Source of the DNA: an uncultured Candidatus Saccharibacteria bacterium
GTDB lineage: Bacteria; Patescibacteriota; Minisyncoccia; Phycocordibacterales; UBA6065
Assembly (NCBI GenBank): GCA_964368565.1
Contig: CAYJAC010000004.1
Coordinates: 1-48,706, forward strand
DNA length: 48,706 nt
Reading direction: 5' to 3'
Made by a program: the position numbers and the translations under genes. Positions 1-37,383 of the stretch are shown piece after piece. The notes beneath the pieces were generated by a model. That model made no database searches. It was not told the origin of the DNA and saw only the letters and a program-made list of their open reading frames with translations. How positions within the stretch are numbered: the first letter of the stretch is position 1; each line of letters starts with the position of its first letter.

Positions 1-80
1 GCCGAGAGGGACTCGAACCCCCGGAGGCCATAGGCCGCGACGTTTACAGCGTCGTGTAATTGCCGCTATACGATCGGCGC
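1..80 (-). tRNA. tRNA-Tyr (anticodon GTA), 3' end truncated by the window edge
   Basis: Reverse complement reads GCGCCGA-TC-GTA(D loop)TAC-A-CGACG-CTGTAAA-CGTCG, a long variable arm (CGGCCTATGGCC), then GGGGG-TTCGAGT-CCCTC-TCGGC. The anticodon loop is CT-GTA-AA. A long variable arm is expected for bacterial tRNA-Tyr. The last acceptor nt lie outside the window. Confidence 0.85.
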
Positions 81-701
81 ATAACGGTGCATGTAGTAAT
101 CTATCATATTCTTGATATCCAGCAACAATTTTTTCTCATGATAGCGGACATGGATCATGCCGTGTGGCATCCGTCCACTCTTGCCAGGGTCCGCGGCTTT
201 TATGTAAGGTTTAGAGAATTGGCTGGTAGGAATTTCAGTTATACCTGCCCAGTACCTAATTGACTCGGAGGTACTTACGTTGGCATGACAATAAAGGTAG
301 ATGCGAAACTTACTCTCGTCTAATTCATATACTGATCTCAAAAAATTCAAAAAAACTTTAATCATGAGTGGATCACTGTTGGCAAAATCAACGAATTTGG
401 CTGGTCTTTCAACAGATCCTTTGTATCCTTCAGCCCAATAGAGCATTGATCCAGCTACTGCAATTTCCTGAAGCTGAGTCGAATCAAGGATTTTTCTTTT
501 AAATGATTGCTTAGATTGCGAGAATTTCAATTGCTGTACTTCCTGGTCTGTACGCCTTTTTATGCCATGCTTTCTCATAATAAAAAGCACAGCATCCGTC
601 GATACTCTGTAATCTTTGGCTATTTTAGAGACAGTAAAACCCTGGTCTCGATAGAGCAAGGTTATTCGATCTATTTCTGTATCTGCAATTGCTTGTCTCA
701 T
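66..701 (-). CDS. HTH + LAGLIDADG-like endonuclease-family protein (paralog 1 of 3)
   Basis: From track ORF 66..719. The ATG at 701 lies 8 nt after an extended -10 (TGCTATGGT). N-terminal HTH (GFTVSKIAKDYRVSTDAV). LYWAEGYK and FANSDPLMIKVFLNFL motifs, plus IRYWAGITEIPTSQFSKPY, are shared with ORFs 4026..4682 and 17825..18514. The last 4 codons plus TAG are nt 1-15 of tRNA-Tyr. Confidence 0.7.
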   Translation of the reverse strand: MRQAIADTEIDRITLLYRDQGFTVSKIAKDYRVSTDAVLFIMRKHGIKRRTDQEVQQLKFSQSKQSFKRKILDSTQLQEIAVAGSMLYWAEGYKGSVERPAKFVDFANSDPLMIKVFLNFLRSVYELDESKFRIYLYCHANVSTSESIRYWAGITEIPTSQFSKPYIKAADPGKSGRMPHGMIHVRYHEKKLLLDIKNMIDYYMHRYAPIV

Positions 702-709
702 ATCGTTTA

Positions 710-742
710 ACCATAGCAAAAAGGAGATAAAGAAATTATAAA
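710..742 (-). promoter_or_regulatory. Bipartite motif TTTATA-ATTTC-TTTATC plus extended -10 TGCTATGGT
   Basis: Minus strand reads ctTTATAatttcTTTATCtcc-tttt-TGCTATGGT-taaacgat-ATG. The same architecture occurs at six other sites in the window. Confidence 0.55.
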
Positions 743-3993: not shown

Positions 3994-4019
3994 TTTCTTT
4001 ATCTCCTAAATGCTAGGCT
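3994..4019 (+). promoter_or_regulatory. Bipartite motif (TTTATC-TTTTC-TTTATC) plus extended -10 TGCTAGGCT
   Basis: ttTTATCttttcTTTATCtcc-taaa-TGCTAGGCT-acaggc-ATG(4026). Confidence 0.55.
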
Positions 4020-4025
4020 ACAGGC

Positions 4026-4682
4026 ATGAAAGTCGAACTAAAGATTAAGGCAATAGAGCTGAGAAAGAAAGGCTATTCTCTCAAAGAAATAGTTGATGAA
4101 TTGAACGTACCCAAAAGCTCTGTTTCAGATTGGGTCCGTAACGTTCCAATGTCTAAAAAGTCAGAGCAAAGGTTGCTTACTAAAATAAAAATAGGTCAGC
4201 TTTATTCTCAAAGAGTAAATAGAGAGAAGAGAATTGAAAAAGAAAGAAAAGCGTCAGATAGAGCGAAGGTTTTGCTTTCGAATATACCCAGTAACAATGA
4301 AATGAGACGTCTGGTATGTTCTTTGCTTTATTTGTGCGAAGGTAGAAAGTCTGTGTTTAGAGGGGTAGACTTTATGAATTCTGATCCGGGGCTTATGCGT
4401 CTGTTCTTGAAATCCTTGCGAGAATCTTTTGATCTTGATGAAAGAAGATTCAGAGTACAGGTTCATCTTCATTCATATCACAACAAAGAAACGCAGTTGG
4501 ATTTCTGGTCAGGGGTAACCGCTATTCCACGGAGTCAGTTTATAAAACCTTATTTAAAAAAGACTTCCGGCATGTATAAGAAGGAGGGTTATCCTGGTTG
4601 TGCCTGCGTAAGTTATCACGACGTGACGGTCTCAAGGGAGTTGAGAGCTGTGTCGTCCGAATATATAAAACTCGACCAATAG
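4026..4682 (+). CDS. HTH + LAGLIDADG-like endonuclease-family protein (paralog 2 of 3)
   Basis: N-terminal HTH (GYSLKEIVDELNVPKSSVSDWV), LYLCEGRK, FMNSDPGLMRLFLKSL and FWSGVTAIPRSQFIKPY, all collinear with the other two paralogs. The TAG ends 2 nt before the 3' end of the convergent tRNA-Trp. Confidence 0.7.
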   Translation: MKVELKIKAIELRKKGYSLKEIVDELNVPKSSVSDWVRNVPMSKKSEQRLLTKIKIGQLYSQRVNREKRIEKERKASDRAKVLLSNIPSNNEMRRLVCSLLYLCEGRKSVFRGVDFMNSDPGLMRLFLKSLRESFDLDERRFRVQVHLHSYHNKETQLDFWSGVTAIPRSQFIKPYLKKTSGMYKKEGYPGCACVSYHDVTVSRELRAVSSEYIKLDQ

Positions 4683-4684
4683 GG

Positions 4685-4755
4685 CGGGCGATGAAGGAAT
4701 CGAACCTTCGCCGAAGCGTTTGGAGTGCTTCGTTCTACCACTAAACTAATCGCCC
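4685..4755 (-). tRNA. tRNA-Trp (anticodon CCA)
   Basis: Reverse complement: GGGCGAT-TA-GTTT-AGTGGTA-GAAC-G-AAGCA-CTCCAAA-CGCTT-CGGC-GAAGG-TTCGATT-CCTTC-ATCGCCC-G. It is 71 nt with one A-C mismatch at the base of the anticodon stem. No CCA is encoded. A TGCTAGAAT -10 lies upstream on the minus strand (plus-strand 4782-4790). Confidence 0.85.
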
Positions 4756-4839
4756 GTCAAGTGCTAGCAACTGATTTGCTAAGCAGGTTTGATTCTAGCA
4801 TAGTGCGAGAATTGTTTCCAAAAATGAGATAATAAAGTC

Positions 4840-6951: not shown

Positions 6952-7662
6952 TTATTCAGATTCATTTCGAAAAGTATATGGTTTACGTGGTTTAGGTAGT
7001 AGGAGTGGGGATGAGAGGTACTCTAGGGCTTGTTTTCGCTTTCGGTCGAGTGAAGGTAAGTTGGGGGAATAATATATCTTGCGTAGCAGGTTAAGTGAAT
7101 CTTTCTTACCGAATTTGACCATATGCATCACGTTTCCTGTTTTTGGATTTTTCTTGGTCGTGTGAATTTTGCCTTTAATACCTGTAATTGTTGATATTTT
7201 TTCATCGAGCCAAACCACATGTTCTTTGCTCGCCGATATAAATCTGACAACGAGTCTTTGATAGATGTAAGCTGGATTTTTGTATGTATTATAGTGATCA
7301 CTAAATGTTGTGATTGATCCATCGCCGTCGAGATGACCTCTTAGAAAATCAATAAAATACTCATCTGGCACAGAGATGCGCCCAATTGTTTTCGACTTAT
7401 TGGGCGTGAGTCCAATTTGCATTAGCCAGCGGTAGAATTGAACATCACCGAATTGAGCTCGGTATGCCCAGCTCTTTGGGTTCACAGTACGTCCTATTTT
7501 ATTTTTAAGTCCCAGTAGGCGATAGAAGGTTTGGATTAGATCCAGATCTTTAGAGGTAAACATAATATGCCTGCCATCACCTGATAGACAGCCGTCAGTA
7601 ACAATAAGCCCAACTATATAGGCTAGTTCTGGTGACCATGTGAAATTTCTTTTGGGTCTCAT
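6952..7662 (-). CDS. LAGLIDADG homing endonuclease (two-motif, monomeric type)
   Basis: Two LAGLIDADG motifs: LAYIVGLIVTDGCL and DFLRGHLDGDGSI. Free-standing gene whose promoter motif begins 4 nt after tRNA-Leu. Confidence 0.85.
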   Translation of the reverse strand: MRPKRNFTWSPELAYIVGLIVTDGCLSGDGRHIMFTSKDLDLIQTFYRLLGLKNKIGRTVNPKSWAYRAQFGDVQFYRWLMQIGLTPNKSKTIGRISVPDEYFIDFLRGHLDGDGSITTFSDHYNTYKNPAYIYQRLVVRFISASKEHVVWLDEKISTITGIKGKIHTTKKNPKTGNVMHMVKFGKKDSLNLLRKIYYSPNLPSLDRKRKQALEYLSSPLLLPKPRKPYTFRNESE

Positions 7663-7668
7663 GCAAAA

Positions 7669-7702
7669 AGACTATCAAATGCATGATAAAGAAAAGATAA
7701 AA
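7669..7702 (-). promoter_or_regulatory. Bipartite motif (TTTATC-TTTTC-TTTATC) plus extended -10 TGATAGTCT
   Basis: Minus strand: tTTTATCttttcTTTATCatg-catt-TGATAGTCT-ttttgc-ATG(7662). An 18-nt stretch, TTTTATCTTTTCTTTATC, is identical to the copy at 3989-4006. Confidence 0.55.
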
Positions 7703-7706
7703 AGTG

Positions 7707-7789
7707 TGCCGAAGGTGGGAGTCGAACCCACATGCCTTGCGGCGGCCGATTTTGAGTCGACTGCGTATAGCCAATTTCGCCACTCCGGC
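7707..7789 (-). tRNA. tRNA-Leu (anticodon CAA)
   Basis: Reverse complement: GCCGGAG-TG-GCG(large D loop)CGC-A-GTCGA-CTCAAAA-TCGGC, a long variable arm (CGCCGCAAGGCATG), then GTGGG-TTCGACT-CCCAC-CTTCGGC-A. 83 nt, class II. Confidence 0.9.
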
Positions 7790-12985: not shown

Positions 12986-13027
12986 GGTCAGTTTATTGTA
13001 GTATGTGAGAGTTAAAGAAAACCTAAA

Positions 13028-15351: not shown

Positions 15352-16377
15352 ATGGAATACGGATTCTGGAAAAAGCTTAAAAAGCCATTCTTTGTACTGG
15401 CACCTATGGCCGATGTTACGGACACGGCCTTTCGCCGTATCATAACCAAATATGGCAAGCCTGATGTGTTGTGGACGGAATTCGTGTCTGCTGACGGGCT
15501 ATGTTCGCCTGGCAGAAAGGTTCTGATCCGAGATCTCGAATTCACTCGAAAGGAAAAACCTATTGTGGCGCAGCTTTTTTCATCCAAGCCAGAAAAAATG
15601 CGCGAGGCGGCGGCACTGTGCCAGAAGCTAGGTTTTCACGGCATCGACATTAACATGGGCTGTCCGGATAAATCCATAGAGAAGCAGGGATGCGGCGCGG
15701 CCATGATAAAATCGCCTGCCGTTGCACGCGCAATTATCCGCGCCGCAAAAGAAGGTGCACCAAAACTACCAATTTCTGTAAAGACACGTATCGGATATAA
15801 CAAAAACGAAATTGCCACCTGGATCCCTGAAATTCTTTCTGAAGGTGTGGCTGCGCTTACCATTCATTGCCGTACGCGTAAAGAAATGTCGAACGTACCT
15901 GCTCGTTGGGAGCATATCCGTGAAGTAGTAGCGCTCCGTGACAGCATCGCACCCGATACATTGATCATCGGCAACGGCGATATCAAAGACATCGCTGACG
16001 GACGAGCAAAGGCTGCTGAATTCGGCGCCGACGGTGTCATGCTTGGTCGTGCAATTTTTGGTAATCCGTGGCTTTTCTCTGCTTTGCATACAAAGGATGG
16101 TAATCCGATTATTCCTACAGTCGCAGAAAAATTAAACGTCATGGTCGAGCATAGCAAGCTCTATGAAAAACTTCTGGGCGATATAAAAAGTTTTGCCATC
16201 ATGAAAAAACACTACAAGGCATACGTGAATAATTTTGATAATGCAAAGGAGCTGCGCGCAAAGCTCATGGAGGCGAATACTTCCAAGGAGGTGGAAAAGA
16301 CTATTAAGAAATTTCTTAAGGATGGCACAATAGACTCTTTGCTCGCGCCTGTGCATAACTATATTGCGAGGCCGTAA
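15352..16377 (+). CDS. dus: tRNA-dihydrouridine synthase
   Basis: FVLAPMADVTDTAFRRI, GIDINMGCP and TIHCRTR motifs of the Dus TIM-barrel family. Confidence 0.9.
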   Translation: MEYGFWKKLKKPFFVLAPMADVTDTAFRRIITKYGKPDVLWTEFVSADGLCSPGRKVLIRDLEFTRKEKPIVAQLFSSKPEKMREAAALCQKLGFHGIDINMGCPDKSIEKQGCGAAMIKSPAVARAIIRAAKEGAPKLPISVKTRIGYNKNEIATWIPEILSEGVAALTIHCRTRKEMSNVPARWEHIREVVALRDSIAPDTLIIGNGDIKDIADGRAKAAEFGADGVMLGRAIFGNPWLFSALHTKDGNPIIPTVAEKLNVMVEHSKLYEKLLGDIKSFAIMKKHYKAYVNNFDNAKELRAKLMEANTSKEVEKTIKKFLKDGTIDSLLAPVHNYIARP

Positions 16378-16404
16378 TAGCGGGTGTACTCTTTATATGT
16401 GATT

Positions 16405-16666
16405 GAGTCGGTTGTGCACGACATGTGGTCGTTGCCAGGCTCAAGGAGTGGCGCTCGTGTTGCGTGGGGTGTGACACGGCGCCACTCCAAAGCTCTTTGC
16501 CCGACAGTCTTGCAGGACTTCGGTTGTTGTTGATTATTACGCCATCGGAGGACAGAGCATGCAAAGCTTTGTCCTCCTCGCGATTCTCTCCCAGCCAAGG
16601 CAGCTGGGATCAAACCACAGTGGCATGAGGTTAAAATGGACGGGCGCTCTGAAGCGCCCGTCCAAT
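16405..16666 (+). ncRNA. Candidate structured RNA upstream of dnaX (identity unknown; SRP RNA is suggested only by synteny)
   Basis: About 330 nt without a credible ORF. Several strong hairpins: GGAGTGGCGC..GCGCCACTCC (16445-16488), GGAGGACA..TGTCCTCC (16548-16577), CCCAGC..GCTGGG, and GGACGGGCGC-tctgaa-GCGCCCGTCC (16638-16663). I could not find the canonical SRP helix-8 motif. Confidence 0.2.
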
Positions 16667-16713
16667 CTCGTTATATGCTTCGTATTCCGCCTTTCATGCT
16701 TTATACTTATCCC

Positions 16714-17751
16714 ATGTCACACGAAGTACTCTATCGAAAATATCGTCCACAAGGATTCGACTCGGTCATCGGCCAGGAATCTGTGGTAAAAGCCCTGAAG
16801 GGGGCGATAAAGTCGGAGGCTATCGCGCATGCATATCTTTTTGCAGGATCGCGTGGCATAGGCAAGACCTCGATTGCGCGTATTTTCGCTTCAGAAATTG
16901 GTACCAGCGCAAACGACATCTATGAAATCGACGCTGCATCGAACCGAGGTATCGACGACATTCGTGCACTGCGGGATGCAGTCGCCACTCTGCCGTTTGA
17001 ATCGAAGTTTAAAGTGTATATTATCGACGAGGTTCACATGCTCACAAAAGAGGCATTCAATGCGCTTCTTAAAACCCTTGAGGAGCCGCCAAAGCACGTT
17101 GTATTCATCCTTGCTACAACGGAATCTAACAAGCTTCCTGAAACTATCGTATCGCGCTGCCAGGTTTTTGAGTTCAAGAGGCCGACCGTCGATATTTTGA
17201 AGGACACCGTCACAGCTGTGGCTAAAAAGGAAGGTTATGCAATCGAACCTGCTGCGGCCGAACTCATCGCACTGGTTGGTGACGGATCATTCCGCGACAC
17301 TCATGGCATATTGGAGCGCGTCATAGCTGGCATTGATACAAAGGCAGGTAAAAAGATCGGTCGCGATATGGTAGAGGAGGCGACCGGCTCGCCAAAGTCA
17401 GTTATGGTCCGCGATTTCGTCGGGGCGCTTGCTCAAAAGAACGCGACAAAAGCCTTTGCTGTTATCAGCTCCATCCGTGCAAAGTCTTTTGATCCAAAGC
17501 TCTTCCTTGAACTTTCGCTTTCTCTTGTGCGTCTCTCGTTGCTCCACAAGATGGCTGTGCCGAATATTCTCGCCAATTCGTCGGGCGAGGACCAGGATTT
17601 TATCGCTGCGATGCTGGCCGACAAGGCAGCTGTGGTTGATTCAAAGCTTCTGCGAGCATTCCTTGTCGCATTTGATTATGTGGGAGTATCGCCGATTAGG
17701 GAGTTGCCGTTGGAATTGTTGGTGCTTAATGTTGTTGGAGAAAGCAAATAG
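16714..17751 (+). CDS. dnaX: DNA polymerase III subunit gamma/tau (short form, 345 aa)
   Basis: MSHEVLYRKYRPQGFDSVIGQ, GSRGIGKTSIARIFA and IIDEVHML. The ATG at 16714 is 6 nt after TATACT. The track start at 16636 runs through a perfect 10-bp hairpin and is rejected. Confidence 0.92.
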   Translation: MSHEVLYRKYRPQGFDSVIGQESVVKALKGAIKSEAIAHAYLFAGSRGIGKTSIARIFASEIGTSANDIYEIDAASNRGIDDIRALRDAVATLPFESKFKVYIIDEVHMLTKEAFNALLKTLEEPPKHVVFILATTESNKLPETIVSRCQVFEFKRPTVDILKDTVTAVAKKEGYAIEPAAAELIALVGDGSFRDTHGILERVIAGIDTKAGKKIGRDMVEEATGSPKSVMVRDFVGALAQKNATKAFAVISSIRAKSFDPKLFLELSLSLVRLSLLHKMAVPNILANSSGEDQDFIAAMLADKAAVVDSKLLRAFLVAFDYVGVSPIRELPLELLVLNVVGESK

Positions 17752-17777: not shown

Positions 17778-17803
17778 TTTCTTTATCTGTCGCATGCTAT
17801 CCT
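17778..17803 (+). promoter_or_regulatory. Bipartite motif (TTTAGA-ATTTC-TTTATC) plus extended -10 TGCTATCCT
   Basis: cTTTAGAatttcTTTATCtgt-cgca-TGCTATCCT. A second -10-like box, TTTAAT, lies 6 nt before ATG 17825. Confidence 0.5.
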
Positions 17804-17824
17804 GCATGTGATTTTAATTTGTGC

Positions 17825-18514
17825 ATGAAATTAGATTTAAAGAATAGGGCAATAGCCCTGCGACGAGAAGGTAAAACATATTCAGAGATACTGAAGGATA
17901 TTCCTGTTGCAAAGTCGACGCTTACGCTGTGGTTTCATGAAGTTGAATTAGCTGTGCATCAAAAGCAGAGAATAACCGAGAAAAGGATAGCTGGGCAGAA
18001 GAAAGCCGCTCAAGCAAAGCGTCATAAGAGGACTAGATCTCAAGATGCAATATGGACAGAAGCGGAAAGAGAAATTGGGACGCTTTCAAAACGGGAGCTA
18101 TGGCTTATCGGAATAGCCTTGTACTGGGCAGAGGGATCAAAGGAAAAAGAATGGAAACCCGGCACGGGTATGAAGTTTTCTAATTCTGATCCCAGAATGA
18201 TACGGGTATTCTTGAGATGGGTTGGAGAATTTTTCCATACAAAACCGAATGACATTAGTTTTGAGATATTTATTCATGAACACAAAAGGAATCAGATTTC
18301 AGAGGTTGTTAATTTTTGGTCGAGACAGGTCTTTTTTCCAAAAGAATCTTTTAATAAAATTTACTATAAAAGACATAATGTTTTGACCAAAAGAAAAAAT
18401 GTCGGTTTCTTGTACAACGGTCAATTACGCGTTACTATAGCCAAAAGTTCAACTTTAGTTAGGAAGGTAGAGGGTTGGACAAGAGGAATAGATACATATT
18501 GCCAGATCGTCTAA
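17825..18514 (+). CDS. HTH + LAGLIDADG-like endonuclease-family protein (paralog 3 of 3)
   Basis: MKLDLKNRAIALRREGKTYSEI parallels MKVELKIKAIELRKKGYSLKEI of paralog 2. Shared motifs: LYWAEGSK, FSNSDPRMIRVFLRWV, FWSRQVFFPKESFNKIY. The last 4 codons plus TAA (TGC CAG ATC GTC TAA) are nt 1-15 of tRNA-Gln. Confidence 0.7.
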   Translation: MKLDLKNRAIALRREGKTYSEILKDIPVAKSTLTLWFHEVELAVHQKQRITEKRIAGQKKAAQAKRHKRTRSQDAIWTEAEREIGTLSKRELWLIGIALYWAEGSKEKEWKPGTGMKFSNSDPRMIRVFLRWVGEFFHTKPNDISFEIFIHEHKRNQISEVVNFWSRQVFFPKESFNKIYYKRHNVLTKRKNVGFLYNGQLRVTIAKSSTLVRKVEGWTRGIDTYCQIV

Positions 18515-18570
18515 CGGCAGGACGCGGGACTTTGAATCCTGAAATTTTGGTTCGACTCCAAGTCTGGCAA
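18500..18570 (+). tRNA. tRNA-Gln (anticodon TTG)
   Basis: TGCCAGA-TC-GTCT-AACGGCA-GGAC-G-CGGGA-CTTTGAA-TCCTG-AAAT-TTTGG-TTCGACT-CCAAG-TCTGGCA-A. It has the U1-A72 pair typical of bacterial tRNA-Gln. No CCA is encoded. Confidence 0.9.
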
Positions 18571-18596
18571 CAACAAGATTTGATACAATAGCTTAC

Positions 18597-37357: not shown

Positions 37358-37383
37358 TTCCTTTATCTCCCAATTGCTATCGT
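37358..37383 (+). promoter_or_regulatory. Bipartite motif (TTTATG-ATTCC-TTTATC) plus extended -10 TGCTATCGT
   Basis: cTTTATGattccTTTATCtcc-caat-TGCTATCGT, upstream of ATG 37412. Confidence 0.5.

What the first reader, a model, noticed from the sequence alone, without database searches (positions are those of the whole stretch)
17778..18570. Family of three HTH + LAGLIDADG-like paralogs attached to tRNA termini; two terminate inside the tRNA in the identical register
The ORFs 66..701(-), 4026..4682(+) and 17825..18514(+) are collinear paralogs. Each has an N-terminal HTH, a basic linker, L-Y-[WL]-[AC]-E-G-x-K, F-x-N-S-D-P-x-[ML]-[IM]-[KR]-[VL]-F-L, then F-W-S/Y-W-A..IP.SQF.KPY. The E-G in a LAGLIDADG-like helix suggests a single-motif (homodimeric) endonuclease fold. 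Paralog 3 ends TGC CAG ATC GTC TAA, which is tRNA-Gln nt 1-15. Paralog 1 ends GCG CCG ATC GTA TAG, which is tRNA-Tyr nt 1-15. In both, the reading frame starts at tRNA position +1 and the stop is the D-loop TA[AG]. Counting the canonical LAGLIDADG gene at tRNA-Leu, all four tRNA genes in the window have such a neighbour within 0-4 nt of a mature end. Possible readings are homing elements that target tRNA gene borders, endonuclease expression gated by tRNA 5' processing, or a tRNA-linked function of these proteins. I do not recognise this arrangement as a described system.
Basis: partly seen in the sequence, partly recalled or inferred. Interest (0 to 1): 0.8.

Follow-up and report, generated by a model that had tools for sequence, protein, structure and literature searches.

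The report
tRNA-gene-linked LAGLIDADG-like endonuclease family
Three related genes in this window each sit with their tail end against one particular tRNA gene; they belong to a large, unnamed family that probably encodes DNA-cutting enzymes and is tied to tRNA genes in tiny groundwater bacteria, soil actinobacteria and giant phages.

Summary
ORFs 66-701(-), 4026-4682(+) and 17825-18514(+) are paralogs with an N-terminal HTH and a conserved C-domain. ORF3 ends in tRNA-Gln nt 1-15 and ORF1 in tRNA-Tyr nt 1-15. ORF2 abuts an inverted tRNA-Trp.

The link holds far outside the window. Gln-type orthologs lie directly 5' of tRNA-Gln(UUG) in 76/76 usable Paceibacteria loci. Tyr-type genes lie by tRNA-Tyr in 9/9 loci and Trp-type genes by tRNA-Trp in 9/9. 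About 70 of 80 soil (probably actinobacterial) loci carry a Gln-type gene with its 3' end next to tRNA-Gln, in either tRNA orientation. More distant members sit inside tRNA arrays of large phages.

Pfam, NCBIfam, PHROGs and Foldseek do not place the C-domain. A broad profile does match the second LAGLIDADG motif of I-DmoI (E = 5e-4). The catalytic Glu and a nearby Lys align and are invariant or nearly so in the family.

The shared 15-nt register follows from tRNA sequence: T13-A14-R15 is the first in-frame stop. The overlap is evolutionarily labile and is not a conserved device.

Best reading: a divergent, free-standing LAGLIDADG-type homing endonuclease lineage specialised on tRNA genes, possibly fixed in Paceibacteria. 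Its activity is untested.

The parts
1..80 (-). tRNA-Tyr(GUA), cut by the window start; its nt 1-15 (window 80-66) are the last five codons of ORF1
   Evidence: not listed because it is truncated
66..701 (-). Paralog 1 (Tyr-type), 211 aa: N-terminal HTH plus LAGLIDADG-like C-domain
   Evidence: Orthologs lie 5' of tRNA-Tyr in 9/9 loci
714..735 (-). Promoter-like motif TTTCTTTATCT-N6-TGCTA upstream of ORF1
3994..4015 (+). The same promoter-like motif upstream of ORF2
4026..4682 (+). Paralog 2 (Trp-type), 218 aa
   Evidence: Orthologs lie next to tRNA-Trp in 9/9 loci
4682..4756 (-). tRNA-Trp(CCA), convergent with ORF2 (Rfam places it at 4685-4755). It is inverted relative to the same-strand arrangement in 7 other loci; the inversion is shared with the relative whose ORF2 ortholog is 72% identical (L096)
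6952..7662 (-). Canonical LAGLIDADG_3 homing endonuclease gene inserted between tRNA-Leu and miaA; absent at this position in L081, L083, L086 and L090
7706..7789 (-). tRNA-Leu(CAA); its 3' end lies 43 nt upstream of the LAGLIDADG_3 start codon
16636..17751 (+). holB (DNA polymerase III delta'), conserved upstream neighbour of Gln-type orthologs in 54/80 loci; a Dus gene lies further upstream at 15352-16377
17778..17799 (+). Promoter-like motif upstream of ORF3
17825..18514 (+). Paralog 3 (Gln-type), 229 aa: HTH at residues 3-39, basic helix at 52-84, C-domain at 89-225
18119..18142 (+). Codons for L99-Y-W-A-E103-G-S-K106, the LAGLIDADG-like motif; E103 and K106 align with I-DmoI E117 and K120
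18176..18193 (+). Codons for F118-S-N120-S-D122-P, the second conserved motif
18500..18571 (+). tRNA-Gln(UUG); nt 1-15 (18500-18514) are shared with ORF3, whose stop codon is tRNA nt 13-15

Best explanation
The three ORFs belong to a large, unannotated and very divergent branch of the LAGLIDADG endonuclease superfamily. Each protein is an N-terminal homeodomain-like HTH, a basic helix, and one LAGLIDADG-type catalytic module.

The branch behaves like a free-standing ('intronless') homing endonuclease specialised on tRNA genes. Each subfamily is tied to one tRNA identity: Gln-UUG, Tyr-GUA and Trp-CCA here, and other tRNAs in phages.

Proposed mechanism (all four steps inferred):
1. The HTH and basic helix read the DNA of the cognate tRNA gene and its flank.
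2. Two catalytic modules pair, as a homodimer or, in some actinobacteria, as a tandem fusion. They use the invariant Glu and the near-invariant Lys to cut alleles that lack the gene.
3. Repair copies the endonuclease gene together with the adjoining tRNA allele.
4. The resident copy is protected because the gene's own 3' end replaces the flank next to the tRNA.

Shown directly by sequence: in compact patescibacterial genomes the gene has no stop or terminator of its own before the tRNA. It runs into the tRNA until the first in-frame stop, usually D-loop T13-A14-R15. The tRNA therefore has to be released from the gene's transcript.

In Paceibacteria the Gln-type gene looks fixed and under strong purifying selection, so it may have acquired a host role.
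For: Linkage to tRNA genes:
- Gln-type genes lie 5' of tRNA-Gln in 76/76 usable loci, Tyr-type by tRNA-Tyr in 9/9, and Trp-type by tRNA-Trp in 9/9. No family gene lies next to any other tRNA in those loci.
- The specificity crosses phyla. All 87 high-GC soil (probably actinobacterial) family ORFs score best with the patescibacterial Gln-type HMM (median margin 58 bits), and about 70 of 80 such loci have tRNA-Gln within about 140 nt of the ORF's 3' end.
- Thirty-two IMG/VR loci carry full-length members inside phage tRNA arrays. These abut Leu, Cys, Val, His, Lys, Gly, Glu, Trp, Pro or Met tRNAs and have phage genes as neighbours.

Nuclease homology:
- Profile A6 hits I-DmoI at E = 5e-4 exactly on its second LAGLIDADG motif, LYVAE117GDK120.
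- Y100, E103, G104, N120, W165 and G199 are invariant, and K106 and D122 nearly so, in patescibacterial, actinobacterial and phage members.
- I-DmoI E117 is essential for catalysis and K120 is described as catalytic. WhiA, the domesticated LAGLIDADG regulator, has lost both (PMC3384342).
- About 10 of the top 50 BFVD Foldseek matches are DOD/LAGLIDADG endonucleases, though none is individually significant.
- Tandem two-module fusions occur in Actinomadura and Allonocardiopsis.

Signs of mobility:
- L083 has tRNA-Tyr without the gene, and L090 and L092-L095 have tRNA-Trp without it.
- In L092/L093 the gene sits between tRNA-Thr and tRNA-Tyr.
- L128 and L153 carry ORFs whose C-domains are 91% identical but that adjoin different tRNA-Gln types in opposite orientations. 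L128 also has a leftover 3' fragment of a second copy.
- All four arrangements of ORF and tRNA occur between the conserved glmU and desaturase flanks.
Against: - No cleavage data exist.
- The LAGLIDADG link rests on one significant profile match, to I-DmoI only. The same profile does not hit I-CreI or the window's own LAGLIDADG_3 protein.
- Foldseek against the PDB returns no LAGLIDADG structure.
- In the AF2 model a helix follows beta3 where LAGLIDADG domains have a beta3-beta4 hairpin.
- The Gln-type gene is unusually stable for a selfish element. holB is its upstream neighbour in 54/80 loci, and its identity levels off at about 45-53% while holB identity falls to 35-45%.
- tblastn found no homologs in INPHARED phages (three members tried) or in PLSDB plasmids (one member tried).
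- No tRNA-Gln locus lacking the gene was sampled, so no presence/absence difference is shown for the Gln type.
Confidence: 0.55

Rival explanations
1. Domesticated DNA-binding protein, comparable to WhiA. The LAGLIDADG-derived module no longer cuts DNA, and the protein is a host factor that binds at or near its cognate tRNA gene, for example to control tRNA transcription or to protect the locus.
For: - The Gln-type gene is widespread across Paceibacteria and conserved at 45-66% identity. At long distances it is more conserved than its neighbour holB, and upstream synteny is stable.
- It has an HTH domain.
- There is precedent for a domesticated LAGLIDADG-plus-HTH protein in WhiA (PMC3384342).
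- No copies were found on plasmids or in cultured phages.
Against: - The residue aligned with the catalytic Glu is invariant and the aligned Lys nearly so in every lineage, whereas WhiA lost both.
- Members lie inside phage tRNA arrays.
- The Tyr and Trp types are patchily distributed.
- The ORF's 3' end faces either end of the tRNA, which does not suit a promoter-proximal regulator.
Confidence: 0.2
2. RNA-level coupling. The ORF and tRNA form an obligatory co-transcript. Either RNase P cleavage removes the stop codon and so limits protein output, or the protein acts on the pre-tRNA in the way LAGLIDADG maturases act on introns.
For: - The stop codon lies inside the tRNA in 35 of 76 Gln-type loci, 5 of 9 Tyr-type loci and 5 of 7 same-strand Trp-type loci.
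- No convincing promoter lies between ORF3 and tRNA-Gln, while each ORF has a promoter-like motif upstream.
- LAGLIDADG maturases that bind RNA are known (my own knowledge, not checked here).
Against: - The tRNA is on the opposite strand for ORF2 in this window and in L096, and in about half of the actinobacterial loci.
- The overlap state switched with a gap state at least 17 times among 76 orthologs, and the overlap frame varies.
- The C-terminal tail residues are not conserved.
- Actinobacterial same-strand loci carry a conserved -10-like CGGTATCGT element between the ORF and the tRNA, which suggests a separate tRNA promoter.
Confidence: 0.1
3. Local recombination enzyme. The protein breaks DNA at the two acceptor-stem arms, which form an inverted repeat, or at the borders of the ORF-tRNA module, and so drives inversion or replacement of the tRNA gene.
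For: - tRNA-Trp is inverted in place in the window's lineage.
- All four ORF/tRNA arrangements occur between fixed flanks and are intermixed on the ORF tree.
- The HTH resembles those of resolvases, invertases and transposases.
Against: - There is no serine or tyrosine recombinase domain.
- The closest pair with different tRNA orientation (L128/L153) shows replacement by a different tRNA-Gln type, not a simple flip.
- No two orientations were seen within one population.
Confidence: 0.08
4. Chance adjacency or an annotation artefact: spurious ORFs running into tRNA genes.
For: the ORF listing is purely mechanical, and one tRNA is cut by the window edge.
Against: - Profile search returned 9435 clusters at 50% identity with E <= 1e-3 and 1443 with E <= 1e-30.
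- The AF2 models are confident, with pLDDT 86-89.
- Motifs are invariant across the family.
- The adjacency recurs in every usable patescibacterial locus and in about 70 of 80 soil loci.
Confidence: 0.01

Closest known systems
LAGLIDADG homing endonucleases, in particular I-DmoI (PDB 1B24, 2VS7)
   Same: The family has a helix ending in an acidic residue followed by Gly and then a short beta hairpin. Its consensus LYWaEGsK...sfaNsDpemiklflkfL aligns with I-DmoI 102-147, LYVAEGDKT...RIWNKNKALLEIVSRWL. The catalytic Glu and the nearby Lys are both matched (PMC3384342).
   Different: - It is not encoded in an intron or intein.
- It has one motif per module and an N-terminal HTH.
[quoted passage not shown]
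- Pfam LAGLIDADG_1, _2 and _3 do not detect it.
- It lies next to tRNA genes.
Phage T4 SegB, a free-standing GIY-YIG homing endonuclease in the T4 tRNA gene cluster (PMC2330249)
   Same: It is a free-standing endonuclease gene lodged among tRNA genes, and it promotes preferential inheritance of the neighbouring tRNA region. That behaviour is the closest model for what is proposed here.
   Different: - It belongs to a different catalytic family (GIY-YIG).
- It is known only from T-even phages.
- It has no tRNA-identity-specific subfamilies and no cellular copies.
WhiA/DUF199 (PMC3384342)
   Same: It combines LAGLIDADG-derived domains with an HTH, is chromosomal and is conserved across a large bacterial clade.
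   Different: [quoted passage not shown]
The window's own LAGLIDADG_3 gene (6952-7662)
   Same: It is a free-standing endonuclease gene placed at a tRNA gene border in the same genome and has the same type of promoter-like motif upstream.
   Different: - It is a canonical two-motif protein that Pfam and PHROGs recognise.
- It lies 3' of its tRNA and 43 nt away.
- It is absent from related genomes.
- The family profile shows no detectable similarity to it.

Membership tests
LAGLIDADG endonuclease superfamily | LAGLIDADG helix whose penultimate residue is a metal-binding Asp or Glu | tested here: met
   Profile A6 matches I-DmoI motif 2 at E = 5e-4, with family E103 on E117. E103 and G104 are invariant in 36 cellular sequences, 28 phage members and the 47-sequence C-domain alignment.
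LAGLIDADG endonuclease superfamily | Conserved basic residue next to the active site | tested here: met
   K106 aligns with I-DmoI K120. It is invariant in A4 and present in 27 of 28 phage members.
LAGLIDADG endonuclease superfamily | [quoted passage not shown] | tested here: inconclusive
   - The AF2 models are confident (pLDDT 86-89), but a helix follows beta3.
- Foldseek against the PDB gives no hit at E < 1e-3 and no LAGLIDADG structure in the top 50.
- In BFVD, about 10 of the top 50 matches are DOD/LAGLIDADG proteins, with TM 0.35-0.42 and none significant.
LAGLIDADG endonuclease superfamily | Match to curated Pfam LAGLIDADG models at the gathering threshold | tested here: not met
   Only HTH families match. 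One of 25 C-domains gives a weak LAGLIDADG_3 hit at E = 0.03.
LAGLIDADG endonuclease superfamily | Working unit of two LAGLIDADG domains, as a homodimer or a tandem repeat | tested here: inconclusive
   Each module has a single motif. Natural two-module fusions of 424-576 aa exist in Actinomadura and Allonocardiopsis. Dimerisation was not modelled.
LAGLIDADG endonuclease superfamily | Site-specific double-strand DNA cleavage | not testable with these tools
   This needs biochemistry.
Free-standing (intronless) homing endonuclease genes | The gene lies beside a conserved target gene, not inside an intron or intein | tested here: met
   The gene is adjacent to tRNA genes in Patescibacteria, in high-GC soil (probably actinobacterial) contigs and in phage tRNA arrays.
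Free-standing (intronless) homing endonuclease genes | Presence in some and absence in other related genomes at the same locus | tested here: met
   - Tyr type: absent at the tRNA-Tyr of L083.
- Trp type: absent at the tRNA-Trp of L090 and L092-L095.
- Gln type: not assessed, because no locus lacking the gene was sampled.
Free-standing (intronless) homing endonuclease genes | Cleavage of the allele that lacks the gene, followed by co-conversion of the gene with its flanks | not testable with these tools
   The only indirect sign is the L128/L153 cassette replacement, with a leftover ORF 3' fragment.
WhiA/DUF199 | Two degenerate LAGLIDADG domains that lack catalytic residues, plus a C-terminal HTH | tested here: not met
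   The family has one module, an N-terminal HTH, and retains the residues aligned with the catalytic Glu and Lys.
Serine or tyrosine site-specific recombinases | Recombinase catalytic domain | tested here: not met
   Only the HTH resembles the resolvase, invertase and transposase HTHs.

The most novel reading that the evidence does not exclude
These may not be ordinary selfish endonucleases. They may form a set of tRNA-identity-specific LAGLIDADG enzymes that are kept as functional partners of particular tRNA genes across Patescibacteria, Actinobacteria and large phages.

Two versions are open. In one, endonuclease-plus-tRNA cassettes replace or invert resident tRNA alleles, which would amount to 'tRNA gene homing' and might matter in conflicts over tRNA-targeting defences. 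In the other, the proteins act on the pre-tRNA or on the mRNA-tRNA co-transcript.

Either way, the strict rule that the gene's 3' end abuts the tRNA in either orientation would reflect recognition of the acceptor-stem sequence, which reads the same inward from both ends of a tRNA gene.
Probability: 0.2. Interest if true: 0.9.

Novelty: new variant of a known kind. Interest (0 to 1): 0.78.

Why it matters
- Several thousand protein clusters (9435 at E <= 1e-3, 4728 at E <= 1e-10) currently labelled 'hypothetical' or 'HTH domain protein' would gain a probable fold, an active site and a genomic rule.
- The family would be a new, compact LAGLIDADG architecture, with an HTH reader plus a single catalytic module. 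Its natural subfamilies appear tuned to different conserved ~70-bp targets, the tRNA genes, which is of interest for meganuclease engineering.
- It offers an explanation for why tRNA gene borders are rearrangement hot spots in CPR genomes, in Actinomadura-like actinobacteria and in the tRNA arrays of large phages.
- Cultured hosts such as Actinomadura atramentaria and Allonocardiopsis opalescens make it testable.
- The stop codon inside the tRNA also warns annotators that these ORFs are real even though they overlap a tRNA gene.

Tried and rejected
**Family and fold assignment**
- Pfam, NCBIfam, PHROGs and PADLOC on the three paralogs and on 10 phage-type members found only the HTH.
- phmmer of single proteins and the narrow profile A2 against PDB sequences found nothing or only HTH hits.
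- Foldseek of the full-length and the domain-only models against the PDB returned only generic alpha/beta sandwiches (MotB/OmpA-like, IspF) at TM <= 0.37. I rejected these as homologs.
- The family HMM does not hit I-CreI or the window's LAGLIDADG_3 protein.

**The shared upstream motif**
I tested whether TTTCTTTATCT-N6-TGCTA is a family-specific operator or part of a mobile unit, and rejected both. The motif also precedes dprA, the LAGLIDADG_3 gene and an unrelated ORF. It is not conserved upstream of orthologs in other species, apart from a four-mismatch match in the closest relative L001. It is most likely a promoter type of this genome.

**The 15-nt register as a selected feature**
Rejected, for three reasons:
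- The overlap state is labile.
- Other overlap frames occur.
- In tRNA-Gln only the frame that starts at +1 meets an early stop.

**Other checks that led nowhere**
- An internal tRNA promoter inside ORF3: the one consensus match is at chance level.
- tblastn of the actinobacterial module against PLSDB plasmids, and of that module plus two phage-type members against INPHARED phages: no match.
- Literature searches for a described tRNA-linked LAGLIDADG or HTH family in CPR found nothing relevant.
- I considered whether the tail GCCGGTATCGTATGA in L097 is a relic tRNA 5' end. It is better explained as a conserved -10-like element, CGGTATCGT, upstream of actinobacterial tRNA-Gln.
- The broad alignment A4 was too diverse for the search for related loci.
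Full report
**1. What is in the window**

ARAGORN finds tRNA-Trp(CCA) at 4682-4756(-), tRNA-Leu(CAA) at 7706-7789(-) and tRNA-Gln(UUG) at 18500-18571(+). Rfam agrees on all three. A fourth tRNA, tRNA-Tyr(GUA) with a long variable arm, is cut by the window start. It is readable on the minus strand from position 80 downward, and ARAGORN calls it at -3..80 when partial genes are allowed.

ORFs 66-701(-), 4026-4682(+) and 17825-18514(+) are collinear paralogs, 23-28% identical.
- ORF3 ends TGC CAG ATC GTC TAA, which is tRNA-Gln nt 1-15. The acceptor stem pairs from 18500, so the tRNA 5' end cannot be shifted.
- ORF1 ends GCG CCG ATC GTA TAG, which is tRNA-Tyr nt 1-15.
- ORF2 is arranged differently. 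Its stop codon abuts the 3' end of tRNA-Trp, which lies on the other strand.
- The gene next to tRNA-Leu (6952-7662, -) is a canonical LAGLIDADG_3 protein (Pfam E = 6.5e-11; PHROG 'endonuclease' E = 1.4e-26). It starts 43 nt downstream of the tRNA, not 0-4 nt.

**2. The link to tRNA genes is general and specific to tRNA identity**

The window appears to come from a Paceibacteria-type (CPR) genome, because the nearest homologs are named Paceibacterota or Minisyncoccota.

*Gln type.* A scan of species-representative genomes with the ORF3 family gave 425 relatives, of which 80 loci were kept. In 75 of these, plus the window, the ortholog lies directly 5' of tRNA-Gln(UUG) on the same strand. In the other five, the contig ends within about 100 nt of the ORF. 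The junction states among the 76 loci are:

| Junction state | Loci |
|---|---|
| 15-nt overlap | 31 |
| 21-nt overlap | 3 |
| 65-nt overlap | 1 |
| gap of 0-45 nt | 41 |

*Tyr type.* Homologs of ORF1 chosen for their different C-terminal tails all lie 5' of tRNA-Tyr. With the window this makes 9/9 loci, with overlaps of 37, 18, 15, 15 and 13 nt and gaps of 1, 1, 7 and 7 nt.

*Trp type.* Homologs of ORF2 lie 5' of tRNA-Trp on the same strand in 7 loci. The arrangement is convergent in the window and in the locus whose ORF2 ortholog is 72% identical (L096), so the tRNA-Trp inversion is inherited in this lineage.

None of the other tRNAs in the held loci (Leu, Met, Thr, Ala, Lys) has a family gene next to it.

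**3. The overlap register follows from tRNA sequence**

On a neighbour-joining tree of the 76 Gln-type proteins, the overlap and gap states interchange at least 17 times. The tail residues are not conserved.

In tRNA-Gln, only the frame that begins at +1 meets an early stop, T13-A14-A15. Where position 13 is not T, the ORF runs on to nt 19-21 instead (tail ...IVQW*). In the Tyr and Trp families other frames occur, for example a stop at U8-A9-G10 giving a 10-nt overlap.

The 'identical register' of ORF1 and ORF3 therefore reflects conserved tRNA positions and genome compaction. It is not a dedicated mechanism.

**4. What the protein is**

Curated libraries see only the N-terminal homeodomain-like HTH (HTH_23).

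AlphaFold models are confident: pLDDT 88.6 for the full-length protein, and pLDDT 85.8 with pTM 0.81 for the C-domain alone. They show an HTH at residues 3-39, a long basic helix at 52-84, and an alpha/beta C-domain whose first helix ends in LYWAE103G.

Fold searches did not settle the fold:
- Foldseek against the PDB gives nothing significant and no LAGLIDADG structure.
- In BFVD, about ten of the top 50 weak matches are DOD/LAGLIDADG endonucleases or intein endonuclease domains, with TM 0.35-0.42.

The decisive result came from a broader profile. I built alignment A6 from 47 C-domains of patescibacterial, actinobacterial and phage members. Searched against all PDB sequences, it hits only I-DmoI at significance (E = 5e-4). 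The match lies exactly on the second LAGLIDADG motif of I-DmoI: LYVAE117GDK120T...RIWNKNKALLEIVSRWL against the family consensus LYWaEGsKe...sfaNsDpemiklflkfL. Entries of I-DmoI variants score lower.

According to a review, E117 is essential for catalysis and K120 is a catalytic basic residue. WhiA, the domesticated LAGLIDADG-plus-HTH regulator, has lost both (PMC3384342).

In this family Y100, E103, G104, N120, W165 and G199 are invariant, and K106 and D122 nearly so, in every lineage examined.

Caveats:
- The profile does not detect I-CreI or the window's own LAGLIDADG_3 protein.
- The modelled second half of the domain departs from the classical beta3-beta4 hairpin.

I therefore treat LAGLIDADG ancestry as likely, at about two in three, but not proven.

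**5. Size and spread of the family**

A profile of the three subfamilies finds 9435 clusters at 50% identity with E <= 1e-3, 4728 with E <= 1e-10 and 1443 with E <= 1e-30.

Some members are 424-576-aa proteins made of two complete modules. They come from cultured actinobacteria (Actinomadura atramentaria WP_019629257.1, A. parmotrematis, A. flavalba, Allonocardiopsis opalescens) and are annotated only as 'helix-turn-helix domain-containing' or 'hypothetical'. Such fusions parallel the known evolution of monomeric two-motif LAGLIDADG enzymes from homodimers, and they fit a dimeric working unit.

The A. atramentaria gene lies 43 nt upstream of tRNA-Gln(UUG), followed by glmU, prs, rplY and pth.

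A metagenome scan with these proteins gave 80 soil loci with 66% GC.
- All 87 family ORFs in these loci and in L097 score best with the patescibacterial Gln-type HMM, by a median margin of 58 bits.
- About 70 loci have tRNA-Gln(UUG) within about 140 nt of the ORF's 3' end.
- The tRNA is on the same strand in about half of them and on the opposite strand in the rest.
- Between the conserved flanks (glmU-prs on one side, desaturase-tetR on the other), all four arrangements of ORF and tRNA occur. Counts among loci with informative flanks are 18, 15, 9 and 1, and the arrangements are intermixed on the ORF tree.

The closest pair with different arrangements is L128 and L153, whose C-domains are 91% identical. 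They carry different tRNA-Gln sequence types. L128 also keeps a fragment of roughly 25-30 codons from a second copy's 3' end ahead of its tRNA. This is a cassette replacement rather than a simple flip.

**6. Phages**

IMG/VR scans returned 32 loci on 11-527-kb viral contigs. In 28 of them the family member matches the profile over most of its length (best domain E between 1e-19 and 1e-49). Almost all of the 32 lie within or beside tRNA gene arrays.
- On the same strand, the 3' end abuts tRNA-Leu(CAG) (15-nt overlap), Cys (1-nt gap; 15-nt overlap), Val(UAC) (8-nt gap; 10-nt overlap), His, Lys or Gly.
- In convergent arrangement it faces Glu, Trp, Pro or Met.
- Neighbouring genes are phage genes: large terminase, exonuclease, RNA ligase, polynucleotide kinase and endonuclease VII.

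None of this is represented in PHROGs or in GenBank phage records.

**7. Interpretation**

The features that point to a free-standing homing-type endonuclease are:
- a retained LAGLIDADG catalytic signature;
- an added HTH reader;
- residence in phage tRNA arrays;
- patchy presence of the Tyr and Trp types among related genomes (L083, L090, L092-L095);
- insertion between tRNA-Thr and tRNA-Tyr in L092/L093;
- cassette replacement in actinobacteria;
- subfamily-to-tRNA specificity that crosses phyla.

The conserved sequence these genes exploit is a tRNA gene. The closest described behaviour is that of T4 SegB in the T4 tRNA cluster (PMC2330249).

The rule that the ORF's 3' end faces the tRNA from either side can be rationalised, though this is inference only. 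The acceptor-stem arms are reverse complements, so the first 7 bp read inward are the same at both ends of a tRNA gene.

Two observations pull the other way. The Gln-type gene in Paceibacteria has stable upstream synteny: holB in 54/80 loci and Dus in 31. It is also more conserved than holB at long range. It may therefore be fixed or co-opted there.

RNA-level models (gating by RNase P, or a maturase-like role) cannot be general, because the convergent arrangements rule them out. Where the stop codon lies inside the tRNA, however, mRNA translation and tRNA folding must compete on the same transcript.

**8. The other features in the window**

The motif TTTCTTTATCT-N6-TGCTA occurs six times in the window, against 0.06 expected by chance. 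It lies ahead of the three paralogs (exact matches), the LAGLIDADG_3 gene, dprA and an unrelated ORF at 37382. It is not conserved ahead of orthologs elsewhere, apart from a four-mismatch match in the closest relative L001. It is best read as this genome's promoter type.

The LAGLIDADG_3 gene is an insertion between tRNA-Leu and miaA, because related genomes have those two genes adjacent. This independently shows that tRNA borders serve as landing sites for endonuclease genes in this group.

**9. Verdict**

The LAGLIDADG idea gains one significant piece of support. The homing reading is the best supported, at about 0.55. The 'same register' and 'expression gating' ideas are by-products. I found no description of this family or of its tRNA rule in the searchable literature.

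Noticed in passing
window 4682-4756 and L096 4658-4729: In the window's lineage tRNA-Trp is inverted relative to the Trp-type gene. Seven other loci have it on the same strand. In L096 the ORF reads 66 nt across the antisense tRNA.
   Followed up: partly
window 714-735, 3994-4015, 7673-7694, 12999-13020, 17778-17799, 37358-37379: The motif TTTCTTTATCT-N6-TGCTA (an extended -10-like TGnTAnnnT with a T-rich upstream element) occurs six times, against 0.06 expected, always just upstream of an ORF. It matches exactly only ahead of the three paralogs. It is not conserved in other species.
   Followed up: yes
window 6952-7662: A canonical LAGLIDADG_3 gene is inserted between tRNA-Leu(CAA) and miaA. 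L081, L083, L086 and L090 lack it at that position.
   Followed up: partly
L098-L177 (soil metagenome contigs) and L097 (Actinomadura atramentaria): Between the conserved flanks glmU-prs and desaturase-tetR, the ORF-tRNA-Gln module occurs in all four combinations of module and tRNA orientation. Two distinct tRNA-Gln(UUG) sequence types tend to go with the two tRNA orientations in the 16 loci whose sequences I inspected; L097 is an exception.
   Followed up: partly
L128 1940-2016 compared with L153: L128 and L153 carry ORFs whose C-domains are 91% identical. Ahead of its tRNA-Gln, L128 has a duplicated fragment of the ORF's C-terminal coding region, and its tRNA is of a different type and orientation from that of L153. 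This suggests cassette replacement.
   Followed up: partly
L097 6668-6680; L126, L133, L134, L138, L150, L169 (31-50 nt upstream of tRNA-Gln): Same-strand actinobacterial loci carry a conserved CGGTATCGT(G/A) element, sometimes forming the last codons of the ORF. It is probably the -10 region of the tRNA-Gln promoter.
   Followed up: no
P0306-P0310, P0319, P0320, P0344: These are tandem fusions of two complete HTH-plus-C-domain modules in one 396-576-aa protein. P0306, P0307, P0310 and P0320 come from cultured Actinomadura or Allonocardiopsis; the others come from metagenomic or read-assembly data.
   Followed up: partly
L091 5412-5660 and L093 5338-5586: Small GIY-YIG ORFs lie in the same patescibacterial tRNA-Tyr/Trp neighbourhoods. 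In L093 the ORF starts 14 nt after tRNA-Trp. This is another endonuclease-type gene at a tRNA border.
   Followed up: no
L092/L093 3839-4786: The Tyr-type gene sits between tRNA-Thr(GGU) and tRNA-Tyr, and tRNA-Thr(UGU) follows, as if the gene had been inserted into a Thr-Tyr-Thr tRNA cluster.
   Followed up: no
L194 3996-4991 and L195 1233-2183: In two phage loci the family member lies near genes that match RNA ligase and kinase/polynucleotide-kinase phage families, which may be tRNA-repair genes. The connection is unexplored.
   Followed up: no
window 15352-17751: The Dus (tRNA dihydrouridine synthase) and holB pair upstream of ORF3 is conserved with the Gln-type gene in many Paceibacteria (Dus in 31 of 80 loci, holB in 54 of 80). 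Genes downstream of tRNA-Gln are not conserved.
   Followed up: partly
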